DNA of 64,000 bases from Candidatus Pacearchaeota archaeon (lineage in GTDB: Archaea; Nanobdellota; Nanobdellia; Pacearchaeales; GW2011-AR1): contig JBBDJR010000006.1 of assembly GCA_040879785.1 (NCBI GenBank), positions 410 to 64,409 of the forward strand, written 5' to 3'. Below, piece by piece: positions 3,253-63,200 of the stretch. The notes under the pieces are model-generated. The model did no database searches and was not told where the DNA came from. It saw only the letters and a list, made by a program, of their open reading frames with translations. Both the position numbers and the translations under genes were made by a program. Position 1 is the first letter of the stretch, and each line of letters starts with the position of its first letter.

Positions 3253-5706
3253 TTATCCATTCAACCTAAAGATAGTGTCCCCGTTCGCGTCCGTGAAAAT
3301 TCTTGTGTCTCCAACATACAAGTTATCCGTAACGTTCGCATCGCCTTCAACATTTAATTCGTTTTGAGGATTATTTGTTCCGATTCCGAGTCTCCCGGTG
3401 TCATTATCCCAAAAGAAATTAGCGTTATTCTGGGAAATCAAACCTCCAGGTCCTGAAAACAAAACAGAACCCTGAGTCAAAGCAGACAGAGTCAATTGCG
3501 AAAATGTAGGACTGCTCGTTGTGTTAATATCCTGAGGCAAAGAAAGAATCACTCCTCCACTGCCATCATCCGAAACAGAAATCTGATTCGCAGTCCCGTC
3601 AATCCAGGCAACAAGATTAGTATTCTCAACATCATTACTTGAATCCAAAGCCAAAAGCCTTGAAGCACTCAGACCGGGAATCCTTATTTTCCCCGAACTT
3701 TCATTAACAATAAAATTACCCGTAACATTCAAAGCGACCCCGTCCGAATTAGAGCCAGCAATAATCAAACCGCCCGTCATAGTGTCCCCCGCCTTCAAAA
3801 CATACTTGTCAGATAAATTCTCTCCAGACTCAACAAACGAATCCGCGAAAACAGTTCCGGTAACATTAGCATCTCCAATTACATTCAATTCGTGAGAAGG
3901 GTCAACAGTCCCTATTCCAACCACATTCCCATCAGAATCAACAAAAAGAGCATTAGTTCCGATTGTTAAATTTCCATCTACATCAGCACTCCCGGAAACA
4001 CTCGCGTCACCCGAAACACCCAAATCCGTTCCAACATCCAACCTACCAGTAACATTAATATCTCCGTCAGCAAGAAGGTCATTAATATTCAAATTTCCTG
4101 AGATTGTCACCTCGCTTGCCCCCGCATCCTGACTTATTATCGAATCTCCAAGCTCATTCCCGGCAACCCATCTCGGAATAGTATTAAGGGTTCCGGAACC
4201 ATTAACAACATTCTCAGGGTCAACATCAATACAAGTCAAAGTATCGCCAATCTGCTGGACCGCCTGACCCGCAGGACACGCATTAGGATAATTCTGCAAG
4301 AAAGTCCAGTTTATAGGCCCCGAAAACTCTCCCGCATAAACAGTTTGAGTTCCATTTATATCTCCAACAACATTTAACTTATTCTGCGGAGTGACTGTTC
4401 CTATACCCACAAGATTACTATTAGTGTCTGCAAACAGAAGATTGGTTCCAACTGTTAGGTTCTGACCAATCTCAAAATTATTATTGAAAAGATAATCTCC
4501 TGAAACAGTATCTCCTCCTCTCAAAACATAAGTCTGATTTCCAACAGTTTGATTTATCCAATTTAAGTCATTGGTTATCTCACTTCCAAGAATATCCTCT
4601 ACATTCTCTTTGTTTCCCTCATTTGTTCTCCAGAAATTGGAGCTATTTACATCAAGATTTGCCTCATCAGTTATTAACAAATAACGAGTATCTCCTTCCG
4701 TGAAGTTTATCCATGCAAGATCATTTGAAATCCAGCTTCCAAGAAGATCCCCTACATTATCTAAATCACCTTCATCTGTCCTCCACCATTCAGACCTATT
4801 AACATTCAAATCCGGTTCATCAGTCAAAAGAACATATCTACCATCACCATCTGTGAAGTTTATCCAATTTAAGTCATTAACAAACCAACTACCCATTATT
4901 TCAGAAATATTCCTCAATGCACTTCTATCTCCAGTGTTCCAATAATCAGACATATTTACATGAAGATCTCCTTGTCCCTCAGAGATTCTAGAATCAATAG
5001 TACCATTCAAATTAGATTCATTAAAATCTAACTGAGTTCCGTTAAAATCCAAATATAATTGAGAATCAGGACCTACAATCCAGTTGAAAGCTCCAAAAAA
5101 CCAATTTGCAGAAACATTTCCCGTAACATCAACATCTCCAGAGGCATTAATATCCTGAATAAACAAACCTGTAATCCTATTACCTACCTCCCCTAAGAAA
5201 TCAAAAAATCCACTTGAAGCAGAAACATTAAAATCACCAAGAGTCAGATTAGAATCAATATCAATCTCACTCAAATTAACCTGCGTCGCTCTAAAAGAAT
5301 ACGGAACACGACCAAGCTGAGAAACATCTTTTAATTCTCCGTCCCTTGAATAACAAAGATAATACTGTTTATCAAAATTCAGAGCACTCAAATTTCCTCC
5401 GCCCGAACCAACAGTTGGGAGATATAGAGAAACAATTCCTCTGGTGTCCGTTGCCTGAGTTGAAGAATGATTGTAAACAGGATTCTCACAAACAGTTTGA
5501 TTAGAACTCTCAGTTACATTGAATGCAAAATTAAAAGTTCCTGTTACAATATCTCCTGTAGAATCTGTTGTCTGAATATTTATATGAAACGTGTCATTAA
5601 TTTGCGCAGACAATCCTGGAGCTAAAAAAACTAACAAAAACACAATAATAAATAATGTCTTACACTTCACTTGCGCGGGAAAGATATTTAACGACACTTC
5701 TGACAC
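3253..5706 (-). CDS. Secreted surface/adhesin-like protein, paralog of 1..2839
   Basis: 817-aa ORF with an N-terminal hydrophobic signal (KCKTLFIIVFLLVFLAPGLSAQ; an internal GTG at 5670 is a possible start). It has three (V/L)GIGT..P...LNV.GD.N.T motifs and many N-x-S/T sequons. Confidence 0.85.
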   Translation of the reverse strand: MSEVSLNIFPAQVKCKTLFIIVFLLVFLAPGLSAQINDTFHINIQTTDSTGDIVTGTFNFAFNVTESSNQTVCENPVYNHSSTQATDTRGIVSLYLPTVGSGGGNLSALNFDKQYYLCYSRDGELKDVSQLGRVPYSFRATQVNLSEIDIDSNLTLGDFNVSASSGFFDFLGEVGNRITGLFIQDINASGDVDVTGNVSANWFFGAFNWIVGPDSQLYLDFNGTQLDFNESNLNGTIDSRISEGQGDLHVNMSDYWNTGDRSALRNISEIMGSWFVNDLNWINFTDGDGRYVLLTDEPDLNVNRSEWWRTDEGDLDNVGDLLGSWISNDLAWINFTEGDTRYLLITDEANLDVNSSNFWRTNEGNKENVEDILGSEITNDLNWINQTVGNQTYVLRGGDTVSGDYLFNNNFEIGQNLTVGTNLLFADTNSNLVGIGTVTPQNKLNVVGDINGTQTVYAGEFSGPINWTFLQNYPNACPAGQAVQQIGDTLTCIDVDPENVVNGSGTLNTIPRWVAGNELGDSIISQDAGASEVTISGNLNINDLLADGDINVTGRLDVGTDLGVSGDASVSGSADVDGNLTIGTNALFVDSDGNVVGIGTVDPSHELNVIGDANVTGTVFADSFVESGENLSDKYVLKAGDTMTGGLIIAGSNSDGVALNVTGNFIVNESSGKIRIPGLSASRLLALDSSNDVENTNLVAWIDGTANQISVSDDGSGGVILSLPQDINTTSSPTFSQLTLSALTQGSVLFSGPGGLISQNNANFFWDNDTGRLGIGTNNPQNELNVEGDANVTDNLYVGDTRIFTDANGDTIFRLNG
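4510..4959 (-). repeat. Three tandem ~50-codon repeats inside the adhesin CDS
   Basis: Residues ~250-399 read W(R/N)T..G........(I/L)(M/L)GS(W/E)..NDL.WIN(F/Q)T.G...Y.L three times. Confidence 0.8.
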
Positions 5707-5769: not shown

Positions 5770-6298
5770 AGAGTTTTATCGTCGGTGACAAAAAAGAAGC
5801 TTTTTACTTACACTCAAAAAACGTACGGTAAAACCAATTTTGGGATAAAGAGGCAATATAAGGATAAATTAAAAGTAATTTTTATTCAGTATAAAATAAA
5901 TTATATTTGTTAAAGTATACTCAAAATAAAAAAGAAATATCTTTATTCTAACTAGAATAATTCCTTACATCTGGGCAAAATTCCATGGGTGCATGAAGGA
6001 ACCTAAACCCAAGAAAAGAGTCGCTACCATAACAAAAATTTAATTCCGTAAAATAAACAACCTGTAAAATTATAATTGTGTTCAGGATTTTGTCCGCTAT
6101 TAATACTATCAAAATTATTTTCAGCCCTTTGATTAACCATCGTTTTTTGTGTTAACATTTTATTGTTAGATACCCCGCCCTTTAGGGAAGAGCTGTTCAT
6201 TTAACTAAACAATTATTGGAGAAATAACTTCACTAAAAAATCTTATTAAATATAATTCTAAAATCTACCCAACACAAAAAAGAGATTTATTTAAAAAT

Positions 6299-6470
6299 TG
6301 AGCTTTTACTATGATTTCTTAAACAGGATATAGTTGCTCGCTCCGCTCGCAGATTTCCTAAACAATTAATATAATTAAATGAAAAACAAACGTGGATTAT
6401 AGTTAACGGGTTGGGAGGGTGGGATTTATTAAACACAAAAGACTAATTAAACAAATCCACACAAAAAAGA
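6299..6470 (+). repeat. Dispersed intergenic repeat, copy 1, with G-quadruplex motif
   Basis: Aligns by eye with 63028-63200. The two copies share the 17-mer TGCTCGCTCCGCTCGCA (6335-6351) and GGGTTGGGAGGGTGGG (6408-6423). Confidence 0.6.
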
Positions 6471-6483: not shown

Positions 6484-6510
6484 CATTATTCAGGTCTAAA
6501 AGTTTGTAAC

Positions 6511-6685
6511 GAGCCTGTAGCTCTAGTTTGGCTACACTTAGACGAACTAGTAGTGAAAGCAAATACAACAAGCCTGTAACTCTAAGCCGACCACGCTTGG
6601 GCGGTTTTGTAGTGTCAGGCGAACGAAGTGAGCCTGTAGCTCTTTCCTAAGTAACGTCTGGAAACGTAGCGAAGGCGAATAAAAC
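6511..6685 (+). repeat. Three tandem ~59-bp units, each starting with the first 13 nt of tRNA-Ile
   Basis: GAGCCTGTAGCTC occurs at 6511 and 6630, and AGCCTGTAACTC at 6571, each followed by 43-47 nt of GC-rich sequence. The fourth copy at 6686 is the real tRNA. Confidence 0.8.
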
Positions 6686-6836
6686 GAGCCTGTAGCTCAG
6701 TCTGGTCAGAGCGCTGGTCTTATAAGAATACAACCCGTAAGGATTGTAATCTCTTGGAAATCAAAATTTGTCCTGGTCGCAGGTGGTTTTCATCTAAGAG
6801 AGCCAGAGGTCCTCGGTTCAAATCCGGGCAGGCTCA
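6686..6836 (+). tRNA. tRNA-Ile (anticodon TAT) with 76-nt intron (6725-6800)
   Basis: Hand-folded: acceptor GAGCCTG/CAGGCTC, D arm GCTC..GAGC, anticodon stem CTGGT/GCCAG, loop CTTATA|A, T arm CTCGG-TTCAAAT-CCGGG, discriminator A. No CCA is encoded. Confidence 0.8.
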
Positions 6837-6891
6837 TAGGATTTGAATCTCGGTTTAGTGTGGATTTTTCTTTAGGGAAAAGACGCATTAG

Positions 6892-6940
6892 GCCAGAATC
6901 TCGTTAGAGATGTTCTGAGCCCAAATCCGGGCAGGCTCAT
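6892..6940 (+). pseudogene. Degenerate second copy of the tRNA-Ile 3' half
   Basis: GCCAGA...CAAATCCGGGCAGGCTCAT; the last 19 nt are identical to 6819-6837. The T stem is not foldable. Confidence 0.6.
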
Positions 6941-8008: not shown

Positions 8009-8134
8009 GCATTTTTTATTTTTAATTTATTTTTTATTTAGATTAGAGAACACTTTTCTACCTTATTGAGATGATTCGTAAAAAAGTTATATTTAAAAAC
8101 TAATTCTGACATTCTTTTTGTATCTACACTGAAA

Positions 8135-8187
8135 GCCCTTGGCCGACGTCGCTACGGCAGTCTAGGGTGAGCGAACGAAGTGAGTGA
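8135..8187 (+). other. GC-rich leader module plus GAGCGAACGAAGTGAGTGA linker
   Basis: GCCCTTGGCCGACGTCGCTACGGCAGTCTAGGGT differs at 2 of 34 positions from 39917-39950. The linker is identical to 40006-40024. Confidence 0.6.
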
Positions 8188-8276
8188 GCCCCGATAGTTC
8201 AGTGGGTTTCTTTTTTAGAAAAAAAGAAACTACAATGGTAGAAAAAACTAAGATTGGAACTATCGGAAATCCAAAT
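8188..8276 (+). repeat. 15-nt tRNA-Glu 5' fragment plus 74-bp insert
   Basis: GCCCCGATAGTTCAG at 8188-8202 is identical to 8277-8291. The insert holds an 11-bp-stem hairpin (8206-8230) and GGAACTATCGG (8256-8266), antisense to the tRNA 5' region. Confidence 0.7.
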
Positions 8277-8394
8277 GCCCCGATAGTTCAGAGGCCAAGA
8301 ATGCGGCCCTTTCAAATAGCAACGCTTTGACGTTTGATTCAAAGTGAAGCTTTGAAGCACGGCCGTGACCCGGGTTCGAATCCCGGTCGGGGCG
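8277..8394 (+). tRNA. tRNA-Glu (anticodon TTC) with 45-nt intron (8315-8359)
   Basis: Acceptor GCCCCGA/TCGGGGC, D arm GTTC..GAAT, anticodon stem CGGCC/GGCCG, loop CTTTCA, T arm CCGGG-TTCGAAT-CCCGG. Confidence 0.9.
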
Positions 8395-31298: not shown

Positions 31299-31751
31299 AT
31301 GAAACAAACCCTCATCCAGGCAACAGACTTTAACAAAGCGAGAAAAGCAATACGAGAAAACAAAGGAAAGGAAATAGTTTTTTCTTCAGACGATGACGAC
31401 TTAGCCAGGCAGGTTCTCGAAAAAGAAAATATAAATATTCTCTTAATAAATCTCTCAGGAAGAAAGGACAGAATGAAACAGCGTGATTCCGGTCTCAACC
31501 ATGTTATCGCAAAAATCGCAAAAAAGAACAACGTAAGAATAGGAATAAATCTTGATGAGATTCTGGATGCAAAATCAAAAAAAGAAAAATCAGAAATTCT
31601 CGGCCGTGTAAGACAAAACGTAAAACTCTGCAATAAAAATAAATTAAAAATGAAATTCATCTTCTCATCAAAAAATAAAAAAGACCAGCACGATTTAAAA
31701 TCACTCGGACTAACTTTAGGAATGCCTACGTGGATGATAAAAGAATTCTAA
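31299..31751 (+). CDS. rnp3: RNase P protein component 3 (Rpp30-like), short form
   Basis: RKD..SGLNHVIAKIAKKNNVRIGINL...FIFSS...DLKSLGLTLGM is collinear with the C-terminal two-thirds of archaeal Rpp30 as I recall it. Confidence 0.6.
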   Translation: MKQTLIQATDFNKARKAIRENKGKEIVFSSDDDDLARQVLEKENINILLINLSGRKDRMKQRDSGLNHVIAKIAKKNNVRIGINLDEILDAKSKKEKSEILGRVRQNVKLCNKNKLKMKFIFSSKNKKDQHDLKSLGLTLGMPTWMIKEF

Positions 31752-36205: not shown

Positions 36206-36274
36206 AGCCTGTGTTGGGAGTTGAATGAGAACCTCCTGCGGGTTCCTCACACCTCCAGCCTCCCAACTCCAAAA
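36206..36274 (-). repeat. Degenerate second copy of the tRNA-Thr 3' end, forming a hairpin
   Basis: 36206-36225 matches 36275-36294 at 19 of 20 positions. On the minus strand GTTGGGAG pairs with CTCCCAAC. Confidence 0.6.
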
Positions 36275-36391
36275 AGCCTGTGCTGGGAGTTGAACCCAGG
36301 ACCTCGTCATTTTTGGATTTCTTTAAGTACCGAACTTTTCTAAAGCTAGGCATACCAATGACGCGCTCTACCTAATCTGAGCTACACAGGC
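36275..36391 (-). tRNA. tRNA-Thr (anticodon GGT) with 42-nt intron (36311-36352)
   Basis: Acceptor GCCTGTG/CACAGGC, D arm GCTC..GAGC, anticodon stem CGTCA/TGACG, loop TTGGTA|A, T arm CTGGG-TTCAACT-CCCAG, discriminator T. Confidence 0.85.
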
Positions 36392-36454
36392 ACACTACGT
36401 TCGCCTGTTCGCTACAAAACCGCCCTGGCGAGGTCGGCTTAGAGTTACACAGGC
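36392..36454 (-). other. Leader module starting with a tRNA-Thr 5' fragment, ending in a GCGAACGTAGTGT linker
   Basis: The minus strand reads GCCTGTGTAACTCTAAGCCGACC..GGGCGGTTTTGTAG..CAGGCGAACGTAGTGT. It is homologous to module 6571-6629. Confidence 0.6.
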
Positions 36455-38421: not shown

Positions 38422-38447
38422 AGCCCCATAGTACAGTGGTCAAGTAG
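38422..38447 (+). pseudogene. Promoter-proximal 5' fragment of a tRNA-Gln gene
   Basis: AGCCCCATAGTACAGTGGTCAAGTAG matches 39391-39416 at 19 of 26 positions, with compensatory D-stem differences. No downstream tRNA body follows it. Confidence 0.65.
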
Positions 38448-39390
38448 TAAGATATATAAATGTATTTTTCTTTAATTATTTATGAGACTGAAATTAAAAA
38501 AGGGAAAACAAAGAGAACTAATAAAAGAATTTAAGGATGAAAAAAGATTAACATGGATTAATCTAGCAGACCTTCTTGGGATAAAATATGGTAGGCTAAA
38601 AGCATATGTTGATGAGACATCCTTAATTCCAAAAAGTTTTTATGAAAAACTTGATACAAAAAAGAAATTTTCAAAATATATAATTGAAGAGATGGTAGAG
38701 GGTTGGGGGAAGATAAAGGGAGGCAAAAATTCGGGAGGAAGTACTAAAGATATTAGTTTTCCAAGAGAATCAGGAAGTTTAGCAGAATTTTTTGGTATAA
38801 TGCTTGGTGACGGCAATTCGCATAAAACAGCATTTTATAATTCTAGAAAAGATAAAAGAGGAACCTATATGATAAGAATAGTTGGTGATTCAAGATATGA
38901 TAAAGACTATCTAATAAAATATGTAAAGCCATTGATTAGAAAGTTGTTTAACATAAATGTTCGTTCAGGCAAATTTAAGAAACAAAATGCTATTTATATT
39001 GAAGCACACAGTCGTCAACTAATAGAATTTTTAGAAGCAAAAGAATTTAAGCCAGGGAATAAAATAAAGAATAAATTGACAATTCCTGGATGGATACTTA
39101 ACGAAGAAACTTATCTGAAACACTGCCTTAGAGGTCTTATAGACACTGATGGGAGTATCCATAAAATGTCTAACAAGGATCCAAAATTAATTAGAATAAG
39201 TTTTAAGAATCATAATAAAACACTTCTTAAGAATACTAAGGAAGCATTTATCCAAATTGGATTCAATCCGTCAAAGATAATATTGAACAATGTTTTTTAC
39301 ATATCAAGACAGAGTGAAATAAAGAAATATTTAAAAGAGATTGGATTCTCCAACAATAGACATAAGGAAAGGTTAAAAGCTCTTAGAAAA
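38448..39390 (+). mobile_element. Insertion block carrying a LAGLIDADG endonuclease gene between the tRNA-Gln fragment and the intact tRNA-Gln
   Basis: Bounded by the imperfect 22-26-nt tRNA-derived direct repeat. Contains its own A/T box (ATATATAAA) ~25 nt before ATG 38482. Confidence 0.55.
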
Positions 39391-39405
39391 AGCCCCATCG
39401 TCTAG
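38482..39405 (+). CDS. Double-motif LAGLIDADG homing endonuclease with N-terminal HTH-like extension
   Basis: LAEFFGIMLGDGNS and LRGLIDTDGSI motifs ~115 aa apart. The stop codon TAG (39403-39405) lies inside the tRNA-Gln D arm. Confidence 0.85.
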   Translation: MRLKLKKGKQRELIKEFKDEKRLTWINLADLLGIKYGRLKAYVDETSLIPKSFYEKLDTKKKFSKYIIEEMVEGWGKIKGGKNSGGSTKDISFPRESGSLAEFFGIMLGDGNSHKTAFYNSRKDKRGTYMIRIVGDSRYDKDYLIKYVKPLIRKLFNINVRSGKFKKQNAIYIEAHSRQLIEFLEAKEFKPGNKIKNKLTIPGWILNEETYLKHCLRGLIDTDGSIHKMSNKDPKLIRISFKNHNKTLLKNTKEAFIQIGFNPSKIILNNVFYISRQSEIKKYLKEIGFSNNRHKERLKALRKSPIV

Positions 39406-39463
39406 CGGTCAAAGATCTGGCCCTCTGGAGGCTAGGACCCAGGTTCGAATCCTGGTGGGGCTA
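39391..39463 (+). tRNA. tRNA-Gln (anticodon CTG), no intron
   Basis: Acceptor AGCCCCA/TGGGGCT (A1-U72), D arm GTCT..AGAT, anticodon stem TGGCC/GGCTA, loop CTCTGGA, T arm CCAGG-TTCGAAT-CCTGG. Confidence 0.85.
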
Positions 39464-39868: not shown

Positions 39869-40024
39869 GCCCTGATTTTACTAAGCCAGGGCAGATTGGA
39901 TGAATGCAAGGTACAAGCCCTTGGCCGACGTCGCTATGGCGGTCTAGGGTGAACGAAGCGTAGCGAAGTGAGCCCTGATTTAGCCACGCTTGGACGAAGC
40001 AGGGTGAGCGAACGAAGTGAGTGA
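39869..40024 (+). other. Three GC-rich hairpin modules plus linkers forming the tRNA-Glu(CUC) leader
   Basis: M1 39869-39892 (GCCCTG..CAGGGC), M2 39917-39950 (GCCCT..AGGGT), M3 39972-40005 (GCCCTG..CAGGGT). Linkers are GAACGAAGCGTAGCGAAGTG and GAGCGAACGAAGTGAGTGA. Confidence 0.6.
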
Positions 40025-40142
40025 GCCCCCGTAGTTCAGAGGCCAAGAATGCGGCCCTCTCAAATGGCAAAGCTTTGACGTTTGATTCAAAGTGAAGCTT
40101 TGAAGTACGGCCGTGACCCGAGTTCGAATCTCGGCGGGGGCG
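40025..40142 (+). tRNA. tRNA-Glu (anticodon CTC) with 45-nt intron (40063-40107)
   Basis: Acceptor GCCCCCG/CGGGGGC, the same D and anticodon arms as the 8277 copy, loop CTCTCA, T arm CCGAG-TTCGAAT-CTCGG. Confidence 0.9.
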
Positions 40143-63004: not shown

Positions 63005-63027
63005 TACAACGGTTTTGTTCAAAAAAT

Positions 63028-63200
63028 AGATTTTTACTCCAACTCATTAAACAGAAATATACTGCTCGCTCCGCTCGCAAATTACCAAAACAACTAAAAA
63101 AATTAAATAAAAAACAAACGCGGATTTATGGTTAACATGGGTCGGGAGGGCGGGACCTAAGAACTTATTAAGAATAGGATACTAATTAAACAAACCCGAA
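63028..63200 (+). repeat. Dispersed intergenic repeat, copy 2, with G-quadruplex motif
   Basis: TGCTCGCTCCGCTCGCA (63063-63079) and GGGTCGGGAGGGCGGG (63139-63154). Collinear with 6299-6470. Confidence 0.6.

What the first reader, a model, noticed from the sequence alone, without database searches (positions are those of the whole stretch)
39869..40024. Family of GC-rich acceptor-mimic hairpin modules joined by a GCGAACGAAGTGAG linker in tRNA leaders
Every module starts with a sequence resembling the 5' acceptor strand of the adjacent tRNA and ends with its complement. Examples are GCCCTG..CAGGGC/T before tRNA-Glu, and GCCTG..CAGGC before tRNA-Ile (6572-6620) and tRNA-Thr (36403-36454, minus strand). 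Each is then followed by (G)AGCGAACG(A/T)AGTG(AG). I found the linker at 6618, 8169, 39951/39961, 40006, 36392 (minus) and 58803 (minus). Modules at different loci share internal blocks (AAGCCGACC..GGGCGGTTT; CCACGCTTGG), with differences concentrated in loops. These are the GC-richest intergenic stretches in an AT-rich genome, which suggests structured RNA. An Rpp30 homolog at 31299 implies RNase P is present to remove such leaders. Their function is unknown: processing punctuation, decoys, or remnants of mobile DNA are all possible.
Basis: partly seen in the sequence, partly recalled or inferred. Interest (0 to 1): 0.7.

Follow-up and report, generated by a model that had tools for sequence, protein, structure and literature searches.

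The report
Hairpin inserts stacked at tRNA ends
In this tiny archaeon, short hairpin-forming DNA modules, each carrying a spare copy of the neighbouring tRNA's end, have piled up next to tRNA genes; they look like recent, tolerated insertions rather than conserved RNA signals, and their purine-rich loop recurs in hundreds of unrelated microbes and viruses.

Summary
Upstream of tRNA-Glu(CTC), Glu(TTC), Ile and Thr there are 55-90-nt units. Each has a direct copy of tRNA nt 1-13/15 (T'), a hairpin body, an inverted copy (antiT) and a spacer, often the cap GAACGAAGTGA. The 58803 site is not a member.

New points:
- Mirror-image units duplicate the 3' end, from the T-loop onward (Ile, Thr).
- Seven cap-bearing modules and the cap-less M1 align as one family with a 14-bp core hairpin; 7 pairs show compensatory changes. 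Every covariance-model hit with E<1e-3 lies beside a tRNA.
- Close relatives (RFC 85-96% identical) have empty sites with the same promoter-like flank. Other Pacearchaeota carry independent units.
- A LAGLIDADG gene sits in tRNA-Gln in the same layout, T'(25 nt)-element-tRNA.
- The cap caps short hairpins in more than 120 bacterial and archaeal genomes and 30 viral contigs. No Rfam family or paper was found.

Best reading: lineage-specific DNA insertions at tRNA gene termini. The 5' ones are inferred to be transcribed as long leaders that RNase P must remove, with T' locked in a hairpin. The insertion mechanism is unresolved.

The parts
39869..39892 (+). Module M1 of the tRNA-Glu(CTC) leader: degenerate hairpin GCCCTGATTTTACTAAGCCAGGGC. 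It sits where the tRNA starts in the empty allele L001.
   Evidence: weak match to model R1 (17.2 bits).
39917..39971 (+). Module M2': core hairpin GCCCT..AGGGT (39917-39950) plus extended GA cap GAACGAAGCGTAGCGAAGTGA (39951-39971).
   Evidence: cap hairpin z = -3.07; 88% identical to 8133-8195.
39972..40024 (+). Module M3: core hairpin GCCCTG..CAGGGT (39972-40005) plus cap GAGCGAACGAAGTGAGTGA (40006-40024), abutting the tRNA.
   Evidence: model R1 71.3 bits.
40025..40142 (+). tRNA-Glu(CTC) with a 45-nt intron.
   Evidence: Rfam 48.9 bits; ARAGORN with introns allowed.
6510..6685 (+). tRNA-Ile leader array of three units (period 56-60 nt). Each starts with a copy of tRNA nt 1-13, GAGCCTGTAGCTC: U1 6511-6569, U2 6570-6629 (family core plus cap GAACGAAGTGA), U3 6630-6685.
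   Evidence: (D1: 4 copies, spacing 59/60/56); model R1 69.4 bits (U2) and 29.7 bits (U1, not in the training set).
6686..6836 (+). tRNA-Ile(TAT) with a 76-nt intron.
6837..6939 (+). 3' unit of tRNA-Ile: an inverted copy of the T-arm (GGATTTGAATCTCGG), a body, then an 18-nt direct copy of the tRNA 3' end, CAAATCCGGGCAGGCTCA (6922-6939).
8135..8187 (+). Distal module of the tRNA-Glu(TTC) leader: core hairpin GCCCT..AGGGT (8135-8168) plus cap GAGCGAACGAAGTGAGTGA (8169-8187).
   Evidence: model R1 77.9 bits.
8188..8276 (+). Proximal, apparently youngest unit of the tRNA-Glu(TTC) leader: T' GCCCCGATAGTTCAG (8188-8202, identical to tRNA nt 1-15), AT-rich hairpin body, antiT GAACTATCGG (8257-8266), spacer AAATCCAAAT. 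It has no GA cap.
   Evidence: D1, I4, I5; z = -3.8.
8277..8394 (+). tRNA-Glu(TTC) with a 45-nt intron; 91.6% identical to the Glu(CTC) gene, intron included.
36392..36454 (-). 5' unit of tRNA-Thr: T' GCCTGTGTAaCTC, family core hairpin, antiT ACAGGC and cap variant GAACGTAGTGT. Homologous to Ile-U2.
   Evidence: 86% over 71 nt; model R1 67.9 bits.
36275..36391 (-). tRNA-Thr(GGT) with a 42-nt intron.
36206..36274 (-). 3' unit of tRNA-Thr: a T5 run, an inverted T-arm piece GGAGTTGGGAG, a hairpin, then a 20-nt copy of the tRNA 3' end, TTCAACTCCCAaCACAGGCT (36225-36206).
38422..39463 (+). The same layout on a larger scale: a 25-nt copy of the native-type tRNA-Gln 5' end (38422-38446), a LAGLIDADG endonuclease ORF (38482-39405) that ends inside the tRNA, and a complete tRNA-Gln (39391-39463) with a variant D-arm.
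31299..31751 (+). RNase P protein subunit Rpp30 homologue. RNase P is the activity expected to remove the long leaders.
   Evidence: Pfam PF01876, 38.2 bits against cutoff 35.

Best explanation
The modules are DNA-level insertions that accumulate at the termini of tRNA genes. They are not a conserved leader RNA.

Anatomy, which is shown. Each unit contains:
- a displaced direct copy (T') of the tRNA end: nt 1 to 13-15, ending in the D-loop, at 5' sites; from the T-loop to the discriminator, 12-23 nt, at 3' sites;
- a hairpin body;
- an inverted copy (antiT) that pairs with T';
- a short spacer next to the intact tRNA, often the very stable GA-rich cap GAACGAAGTGA.

History, partly shown and partly inferred. 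Units arise in single lineages. They stack into arrays, which probably also grow by tandem duplication. They appear to pass between tRNA genes with similar ends (Ile and Thr; the two Glu genes; Gln and Glu), most likely by break repair or gene conversion.

Why they are tolerated, which is inferred. The 5' arrays lie between the original promoter and tRNA position +1. They should therefore be transcribed as 60-175-nt leaders that RNase P cuts off. The T':antiT hairpin would keep the decoy acceptor strand from competing with the real one.

What starts the insertions is not shown. The same genomes hold LAGLIDADG homing-endonuclease cassettes with the identical T'-element-tRNA layout, which makes endonuclease-induced breaks in tRNA genes a plausible trigger.
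For: Anatomy of T', body, antiT and spacer in the window.

Empty versus filled orthologous sites with a conserved promoter-like flank: L001 vs window (Glu), L004 vs window (Thr), L222 vs L225.

Independent units in other Pacearchaeota: 8 of 64 tRNAs have terminal copies of 9 nt or more within 300 nt, 6 of them 12-15 nt (L199 Gln and Glu, L210, L225 Gln and Glu, L234, L240, L200). One body family (GCTAAAA..TTTTGCyAAG) is shared by tRNA-Gln and tRNA-Glu, whose 5' ends are nearly identical.

One module family with covariation, and every model hit with E<1e-3 beside a tRNA, including the non-training hits L234/L240 (E 1.5e-10), window 6520-6578 (E 1e-5) and L248 (E 3e-4, inside a 3' unit of tRNA-Cys).

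The same architecture at tRNA ends of Halobacteriales, a Thermoplasmata MAG and one Bacteroidales MAG. In L017, L042 and L069 the purine-rich strand of the cap that abuts the tRNA 3' end is antisense to the tRNA. That argues against a function in the sense RNA.

The large-scale analogue T'(25)-LAGLIDADG-tRNA-Gln recurs in homologues at 70% and 49% aa identity.

Rpp30 is present.
Against: - No transcript data, so leader status and RNase P removal are inferred.
- The mechanism that creates T' and antiT together is unknown.
- No transposase, integrase or reverse transcriptase was identified. Only 10 ORFs of the window were screened against Pfam.
- Covariation in the core hairpin shows the fold is maintained, which would also fit a functional RNA. 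N is only 8, and palindromes can be kept by template switching.
- T' length varies (12-25 nt), unlike the fixed target duplication of a transposase.
- The link to LAGLIDADG enzymes is by analogy and co-occurrence only.
Confidence: 0.55

Rival explanations
1. Functional structured leader or trailer RNA. In this reading the hairpins act as processing punctuation, as co-transcriptional folding chaperones that hold the acceptor 5' strand until the 3' strand is made (these tRNAs carry long introns), or as protein-binding sites.
For: - The core hairpin shows compensatory changes.
- antiT can pair with either T' or the real tRNA 5' strand, an attenuator-like 1:2/2:3 topology.
- All four intron-containing tRNAs in the window have modules; the intron-less tRNA-Gln has no hairpin module.
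- The cap is identical at three loci.
Against: - Modules are absent from the orthologous loci of close relatives, including intron-containing tRNA-Glu genes in L001 and L128.
- Copy number varies from 0 to 3.
- 3' versions exist, one of them after a T5 run.
- In other archaea the cap abutting tRNA 3' ends lies on the antisense strand.
- No Rfam family matches.
- Whole-leader folding z-scores are only -0.1 to -2.1.
Confidence: 0.15
2. Remnants of site-specifically integrated mobile elements. T and T' would be attL/attR identity blocks left by tyrosine-recombinase integration into the D-loop or T-loop region of the tRNA gene. Nearly all of each element was later deleted, and repeated integrations built the arrays.
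For: - Partial tRNA duplications are the known signature of integration (PMC9897764).
- Archaeal att sites can be as short as 11-14 bp at the tRNA 3' end, and pTN3-type integrases use the 5' half (PMC8371274).
- T' boundaries fall in the D-loop and T-loop, the classical crossover sublocations.
- In L248 the T-run terminator follows T', as expected for a displaced original 3' end.
Against: - No integrase or other element gene lies between or beside the repeats.
- Units fall in a narrow 45-100-nt size class and are hairpins of one conserved family rather than random deletion remnants.
- antiT is separated from T by 6-23 nt, which does not fit a 6-8-bp overlap region.
- Module bodies have no match in 2.9 million viral contigs.
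Confidence: 0.15
3. Scars of error-prone repair of breaks at tRNA genes. Templated synthesis, direct and snap-back, would copy the tRNA end in both orientations. No dedicated mobile element would be involved.
For: - Direct plus inverted copies of the flank next to an insertion are the hallmark of templated insertions (stem-loop extension by Pol theta, PMC11292364, seen).
- LAGLIDADG endonuclease genes are embedded in tRNA genes of the same genomes.
- The proximal Glu(TTC) unit has a perfect T' and a perfect antiT, as if both were made together.
Against: - The body and cap are conserved between loci and between genomes, so they are not local filler.
- Pol theta is eukaryotic, and no equivalent archaeal activity was tested.
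- Snap-back synthesis explains antiT-spacer-T but not T'.
Confidence: 0.1
4. Ordinary degraded tandem tRNA pseudogenes.
For: - Each unit starts with tRNA nt 1-13/15.
- Some bodies contain D-arm-like pieces, for example CTAAGATTG against CCAAGAATG.
- 3' units in L210 and L225 are interrupted copies of the T-arm plus acceptor strand.
Against: - Units are 56-63 nt, shorter than a tRNA.
- No unit matches the Rfam tRNA model even at E<=1.
- The part after T' belongs to a separate conserved hairpin family with its own cap.
Confidence: 0.05

Closest known systems
Partial tRNA gene duplications (attL/attR) made by integrative elements in archaeal and bacterial tRNA genes
   Same: A direct repeat of a tRNA end flanks inserted DNA and the tRNA stays intact. 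The repeats start or end in the D-loop or T-loop. 5'-side insertions leave the tRNA dependent on an upstream promoter (PMC9897764; PMC8371274).
   Different: Known cases bracket kilobase-scale elements that carry an integrase. Here the repeats bracket 45-100-nt hairpins (about 960 nt in the LAGLIDADG case). An inverted copy of the target and a conserved cap are present, units are stacked in tandem, and no recombinase was found.
REP/BIME, MITE and PATE-type small palindromic repeats; mobile GC clusters of yeast mitochondrial DNA (the latter from my own knowledge)
   Same: They are short, GC-rich, hairpin-forming, extragenic and multi-copy, and they vary between lineages. They form GC islands in an AT-rich genome.
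   Different: The stems here are copies of the adjacent tRNA end and placement is at tRNA gene boundaries. No RAYT or TnpA gene was seen and there is no fixed target duplication.
d(GCGAAGC)-type mini-hairpins: a GAA triloop closed by a sheared G-A pair (PMC13037366)
   Same: The cap apex C-GAA-G is the same loop class. The cap extends it with 5'-CGAG-3'-type tandem G-A steps and is predicted to be stable as DNA or RNA.
   Different: The cap is a longer, specific 20-22-mer found as the same sequence across domains. Its biology is undescribed. Known natural mini-hairpins lie at phage and plasmid priming or promoter sites.
Homing endonuclease genes: archaeal intron-borne LAGLIDADG genes, and the free-standing phage T4 SegB, which targets a tRNA gene region (the latter from my own knowledge)
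   Same: A selfish insertion in a conserved RNA gene that leaves the gene working.
   Different: Function is restored not by splicing but by bringing a duplicate of the displaced tRNA end. Removal of the upstream material by RNase P is inferred. The small modules encode nothing.
Split, permuted or multi-intron archaeal tRNA genes with complementary leader sequences and BHB motifs
   Same: Archaeal tRNA genes are disrupted or decorated by extra GC-rich complementary sequence, and there is high intron turnover in the same genomes.
   Different: Each tRNA here is complete and contiguous downstream of the modules. No bulge-helix-bulge geometry was evident at the unit borders.

Membership tests
tRNA / tRNA pseudogene (Rfam RF00005) | Match to the tRNA covariance model (cloverleaf). 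| tested here: not met
   cmscan at E<=1 finds only the five true tRNAs and no hit inside any module. Units are 56-63 nt.
Any described RNA family (Rfam 15) | Match at or near the gathering score. | tested here: not met
   No hit in the window modules or in 18 cap-bearing loci from other taxa.
K-turn / K-loop (L7Ae-binding) | A 3-nt bulge followed by tandem sheared G-A/A-G pairs between a canonical and a non-canonical stem. | tested here: not met
   Tandem GA steps are present but form symmetric 2x2 internal loops in a continuous hairpin, with no 3-nt bulge. L7Ae binding itself was not tested.
Archaeal BHB intron | Two 3-nt bulges on opposite strands separated by a 4-bp helix at the two borders; the exons join into a functional RNA. 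| tested here: inconclusive
   Inspected by eye only. The 4 nt before candidate 5' borders are not complementary to the 4 nt placed 3 nt before the 3' borders. A complete tRNA lies downstream, so no splicing is needed. No BHB search program was available.
Integrated element flanked by att repeats | Direct repeats consisting of one end of the tRNA gene. | tested here: met
Integrated element flanked by att repeats | An integrase or other element genes between or beside the repeats. | tested here: not met
   The repeats lie 45-100 nt apart and contain no ORF. The one larger case encodes a LAGLIDADG endonuclease, not a recombinase.
MITE / DDE-transposon derivative | Terminal inverted repeats of the element plus a target-site duplication of fixed length. 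| tested here: not met
   The duplicated segment varies (12, 13, 14, 15, 18, 20, 22-25 nt), and the inverted repeat is target sequence rather than element ends.
REP/BIME | A short imperfect palindrome, extragenic, in many copies, with an associated RAYT transposase. | tested here: inconclusive
   The palindrome and extragenic location are met. Copies are confined to tRNA flanks. No RAYT search was done beyond 10 ORFs.
CRISPR-like array | Identical repeats separated by unique spacers, with cas genes. | tested here: not met
   The Ile array has 4 repeats at a 56-60-nt period, but the 'spacers' are homologous to each other and to other loci and pair with the repeats. No cas gene was noted.
GA-capped mini-hairpin family (defined here) | GAGCGAACGAAGTGAG(C/T)GAG, or the shorter GAACGAAGTGA, forming the loop between two complementary flanks. 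| tested here: met
   Window sites 6619, 8171 and 40008. The same motif occurs in more than 120 species genomes and 30 viral contigs.

The most novel reading that the evidence does not exclude
A previously unrecognised, cross-domain class of miniature hairpin elements. They would carry an ultra-stable GA-rich cap and colonise the exact termini of tRNA genes by duplicating the terminal 12-25 nt in direct and inverted orientation. This would be a way for selfish DNA, including intron-less LAGLIDADG homing cassettes, to live inside essential RNA genes without splicing, by exploiting RNase P and tRNase Z end-trimming. Mobility would depend on an enzyme or repair pathway still to be identified.
Probability: 0.3. 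Interest if true: 0.85.

Novelty: new variant of a known kind. Interest (0 to 1): 0.62.

Why it matters
- It would show a splicing-independent way for insertions to be tolerated inside essential tRNA genes. The insert brings, or creates, a spare copy of the displaced tRNA end, and end-processing enzymes discard the rest.
- It points to tRNA gene termini, in addition to the known rapid intron turnover, as fast-evolving hot spots in DPANN and haloarchaeal genomes.
- It matters for annotation. Spurious tRNA fragments, over-long leaders and hairpin 'genes' will recur in MAGs.
- The cap is a 20-22-nt sequence shared by haloarchaea, DPANN, Bacteroidota, Planctomycetota, Omnitrophota and viruses. I found no Rfam family and no paper for it, so its origin (convergence on an extremely stable fold, or horizontal spread) is an open and directly testable question.

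Tried and rejected
- Rfam, at gathering and E-value thresholds, on the window and on 18 cap-bearing loci: only tRNAs.
- Literature search for the cap strings GAACGAAGTGAG and GAGCGAAGCGAG: only unrelated primer hits. Keyword searches returned integrase and tRNA-fragment papers but nothing describing these units.
- Exact look-up of the 87-aa neighbour gene: not on record.
- Metagenome scan with the LD-carboxypeptidase neighbour: no relatives.
- Viral-contig scans with two module bodies: 0 hits.
- Test for a target-site-duplication signature around all cap hits: direct copies occur mainly in the tRNA-adjacent cases (plus tandem arrays), equal to the mirror control otherwise. The cap hairpin and the tRNA-end duplication are therefore separable phenomena.
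- Orientation of the cap relative to neighbouring ORFs: no bias in low-GC genomes; ORF calls in high-GC genomes are unreliable.
- C/D-box sRNA (no C or D boxes), BHB intron, K-turn and CRISPR readings were considered by inspection and dropped.
- The 58803(-) site was dropped.
- A casposon-like 14-15-bp duplication was considered and dropped: no terminal inverted repeats and variable repeat length.
- An adapter or assembly artefact as the source of the cap was rejected: the cap occurs in chromosome-level assemblies of isolates and has sequence-specific flanking stems.
Full report
WHAT IS THERE. The window comes from an AT-rich (36% GC) Candidatus Pacearchaeota (DPANN) genome. Its RFC small subunit is 100% identical to a protein annotated from such a MAG on a 285-kb contig. 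It holds five tRNA genes: Ile(TAT) 6686-6836, Glu(TTC) 8277-8394, Thr(GGT) 36275-36391(-), Gln(CTG) 39391-39463 and Glu(CTC) 40025-40142. All but Gln carry 42-76-nt introns.

The reported region 39869-40024 reads as follows:
- hairpin GCCCTG..CAGGGC (39869-39892);
- a spacer;
- core hairpin GCCCT..AGGGT (39917-39950) plus GAACGAAGCGTAGCGAAGTGA;
- core hairpin GCCCTG..CAGGGT (39972-40005) plus GAGCGAACGAAGTGAGTGA;
- then the tRNA.

The 14-mer GCGAACGAAGTGAG is exact at 6619, 8171 and 40008, and has two mismatches at 36391-36404(-). Allowing 3 mismatches gives 9 hits against 2.5 expected, and 0 of 100 shuffles reach 9. The 58803(-) site does not fold like the others, has no tRNA nearby and is not a member.

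ANATOMY. The 'acceptor mimic' is a direct copy (T') of tRNA nt 1-13/15, ending in the D-loop.
- Ile: GAGCCTGTAGCTC at 6511, 6570 (two mismatches), 6630 and in the tRNA itself, with a period of 56-60 nt.
- Glu(TTC): GCCCCGATAGTTCAG at 8188 and 8277.
- Thr: GCCTGTGTAaCTC, 63 nt upstream of the tRNA.

Each unit ends with an inverted copy (antiT) of part of that segment, so T':antiT forms the base of a hairpin. The 'linker' then closes a second, alternative hairpin between antiT and the next T. One example is CAGGC-GA-AC-GAA-GU-GA-GCCUG. It has tandem G-A steps and a GAA triloop, and folds with z = -2 to -3.

For Ile and Thr, an inverted copy of the T-arm, a body and an 18- or 20-nt copy of the tRNA 3' end lie 85 and 49 nt downstream.

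ONE FAMILY, WITH COVARIATION. Eight modules align as one family:
- six from the window: Ile-U2, Thr, M1, M2, M2' and M3;
- two from other Pacearchaeota: L199 and L237.

The consensus is GCCCT-aaGCCGACC-aCGCTTGG-GCGGttt-AGGGT + GA(g)CGAACGAAGTGA.
- RNAalifold predicts the core hairpin, with 7 of 11 pairs showing compensatory changes.
- For my 14-pair structure, 81.8% of cells pair against 69.6% in shuffles (0 of 500 reach it). The covariation score is 0.43 against 0.22 (0 of 500), and the slid controls drop to 24-59%.
- A covariance model built from this alignment was searched over 723 kb of the window, related loci and a few other DPANN/Thermoplasmata loci. Besides its training copies it found the distal module of L234/L240 (E 1.5e-10), Ile-U1 (E 1e-5) and a site inside a 3' unit of tRNA-Cys in L248 (E 3e-4). 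Every hit below 1e-3 lies next to a tRNA.
- The exact 11-mer cap occurs four times in about 750 kb of Pacearchaeota DNA, always in a tRNA leader.

NOT CONSERVED: RECENT INSERTIONS. Relatives with RFC 85-96% identical keep the same gene order but have no modules. This holds for tRNA-Glu(CTC) in L001, L004, L126 and L128, and for tRNA-Thr in L004, L126 and L128.
- In L001 the promoter-like stretch aatctttaaaaacaaaattctctcttaatctttagtt is identical to the window and runs straight into the tRNA. In the window it runs into module M1, and the tRNA follows 156 nt later.
- The same empty/filled relation holds for Thr (L004 vs window) and for L222 vs L225.
- Among 64 tRNAs in 97 related loci, 8 have terminal copies of 9 nt or more, 6 of them 12-15 nt. 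The units are of different kinds.
- One body type (GCTAAAA..TTTTGCyAAG, spacer AGCAAA) occurs at tRNA-Gln in L199 and at tRNA-Glu in L234/L240, whose first 14 nt are nearly identical. Ile-U2 and the Thr unit, whose tRNAs both start with GCCTG, are 86% identical.

Units therefore arise in single lineages, stack up, and appear to move between tRNA genes with similar ends. Because the arrays sit between the conserved A/T box and position +1, I infer that they are transcribed as long leaders. RNase P would have to remove them; an Rpp30 homologue is present. This step is inference. There are no RNA data.

A LARGER ELEMENT WITH THE SAME LAYOUT. In the window, 38422-38446 is a 25-nt copy of the native-type tRNA-Gln 5' end, as seen in L004 and L128.
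- It is followed by a 307-aa LAGLIDADG_3 ORF (E 1.1e-8). The last 15 nt of that ORF are the first 15 nt of a complete tRNA-Gln.
- The D-arm of that tRNA differs from the native type (GTCT..AGAT instead of GTAC..GTAT).
- The same T'(25)-ORF-tRNA-Gln layout is found with homologues of 70% and 49% aa identity, and next to a paralogue fetched from a different sequencing run, the same run as locus L005.

This reads as an intron-less homing cassette that carries a replacement, possibly cleavage-immune, 5' part of the tRNA. It shows that tRNA genes here are targets of break-inducing selfish elements. A causal link to the small modules is a hypothesis.

THE CAP IS CROSS-DOMAIN. My rough expectation from genome size alone was 30-40.
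- Nearly all hits are the single 22-mer CGAGCGAACGAAGTGAGCGAG(C/T). It forms the loop between complementary flanks of variable sequence.
- Hosts include many Halobacteriales (isolates among them), Thermoplasmata, Woesearchaeota/Nanoarchaeia, Bacteroidota, Planctomycetota, Omnitrophota, Gemmatimonadota, Alphaproteobacteria and a Treponema.
- The exact 20-mer occurs in 30 IMG/VR contigs, where my rough chance expectation is about 0.1.
- It matches no Rfam family, shows no orientation bias relative to genes in low-GC genomes, and I found no paper containing the sequence.
- Its apex C-GAA-G belongs to the class of extraordinarily stable mini-hairpins (PMC13037366).

Of these hits, 17 cap-tRNA pairs in 14 loci lie within 200 nt of a tRNA. 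In haloarchaea, a Thermoplasmata MAG and one Bacteroidales MAG the full architecture recurs: tRNA end, cap, antiT, body and a 13-23-nt copy of the tRNA end. In L017, L042 and L069, where the cap abuts a tRNA 3' end, its purine-rich strand is antisense to the tRNA. At the 5' end of L112 it is on the sense strand. In these four cases the structured strand therefore reads into the gene from either side. Together with the non-conservation, this argues for a DNA-level logic rather than a function in the tRNA transcript.

Outside tRNA flanks the cap hairpins show direct repeats no more often than the mirror control. The cap motif and the tRNA-end duplication are therefore separable.

INTERPRETATION. 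Best supported (about 0.55): the modules are lineage-specific insertions at tRNA gene termini.
- They are tolerated because a complete tRNA end is kept next to the gene body and end-processing removes the rest.
- The T':antiT hairpin neutralises the decoy strand.
- Arrays probably grow by repeated insertion and tandem duplication.
- Spread between similar tRNAs is probably by recombination or break repair.

Rivals are a functional leader RNA (0.15), remnants of integrase-borne elements (0.15), pure repair scars (0.1) and tRNA pseudogenes (0.05).

What remains unexplained:
- how T' and antiT are generated together;
- what, if anything, mobilises the units;
- why one 20-22-nt cap sequence is shared across domains and viruses.

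COMPARISON WITH THE KNOWN. Partial tRNA duplications from integrative elements are well known (PMC9897764, PMC8371274), as are small palindromic repeats and GAA mini-hairpins. I did not find a description of their combination: 45-100-nt hairpin units bracketed by direct and inverted copies of the exact tRNA terminus, stacked in leaders and trailers, often capped by a conserved GA hairpin, and paralleled by LAGLIDADG cassettes of the same layout. I rate it a new variant of a known kind, with interest 0.62.

Noticed in passing
window 38422-39463; L249-L252; L253/L255; L248 8000-9104: LAGLIDADG homing-endonuclease ORFs inserted in tRNA-Gln genes. A 25-nt copy of the native tRNA 5' end lies upstream. 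The ORF stop codon lies in, or directly before, a complete downstream tRNA-Gln with a variant D-arm. The layout recurs in homologues at 49-70% aa identity, from a family of 973 proteins at E<=1e-10. It looks like an intron-less homing cassette that carries a replacement exon.
   Followed up: partly
L128 2100-2799; L228/L231 upstream of tRNA-Glu: Further LAGLIDADG-like ORFs end at or inside the 5' end of tRNA-Thr and tRNA-Glu in other Pacearchaeota. No clear upstream tRNA copy was found for these.
   Followed up: partly
window tRNAs vs L001, L004, L126, L128 and L168-L247: Introns at position 37/38 are extremely variable between close relatives. In tRNA-Glu(CTC) the intron is absent, or 39-170 nt long with unrelated sequences. 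The window's two tRNA-Glu genes share nearly the same intron and leader module (91.6% over 119 nt).
   Followed up: partly
window 6293-6458 and 63022-63197: A dispersed intergenic repeat of about 175 nt (76% identity) contains a mini GA hairpin, TGCGAGCGGAGCGAGCA. One copy lies upstream of the 817-aa secreted-protein-like ORF 3253-5706(-).
   Followed up: no
L045 ~3890-3960; L072 ~2090-2180: In two other DPANN genomes the cap sits inside a nested, Y-shaped structure: an outer stem encloses the cap hairpin plus a second hairpin. The junction ...CCCGAGCGAACGAAGTGAGCGAGCATGCC... is conserved.
   Followed up: no
L023, L029, L033, L060, L103 (Bacteroidota): A conserved GC-rich multi-hairpin element ending in the cap lies 100-250 nt downstream of tRNA-Arg(ACG) and its terminator in L023, L029, L033 and L060; L103 carries two copies of the same cap context. 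No Rfam match (L023 was the one scanned).
   Followed up: no
L034, L071, L089, L112 (Halobacteriales): Different haloarchaeal tRNA genes share two features: a trailer hairpin TTTTcGGCGAAC..GTGAGCCgAAAA, and a 3' unit body ..GATTTGAA..CCAGTCGCGyGCAGCG..GAGCGAGCACGTCTGG followed by a copy of the T-loop-to-3'-end segment. L034 and L071 carry two stacked units.
   Followed up: partly
L056 2945-3134; L064 4006-4171: The cap also occurs inside tandem repeats: period 84 nt with 3 copies in an Omnitrophota MAG, and period 48 nt with 4 copies in an Alphaproteobacteria MAG.
   Followed up: no
L253/L255 3395-3497: The tRNA downstream of the P0221 LAGLIDADG ORF appears to be tRNA-Gln(CTG) with an extra insertion in the D-arm region. 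ARAGORN miscalls it as Val with a 13-nt intron.
   Followed up: no
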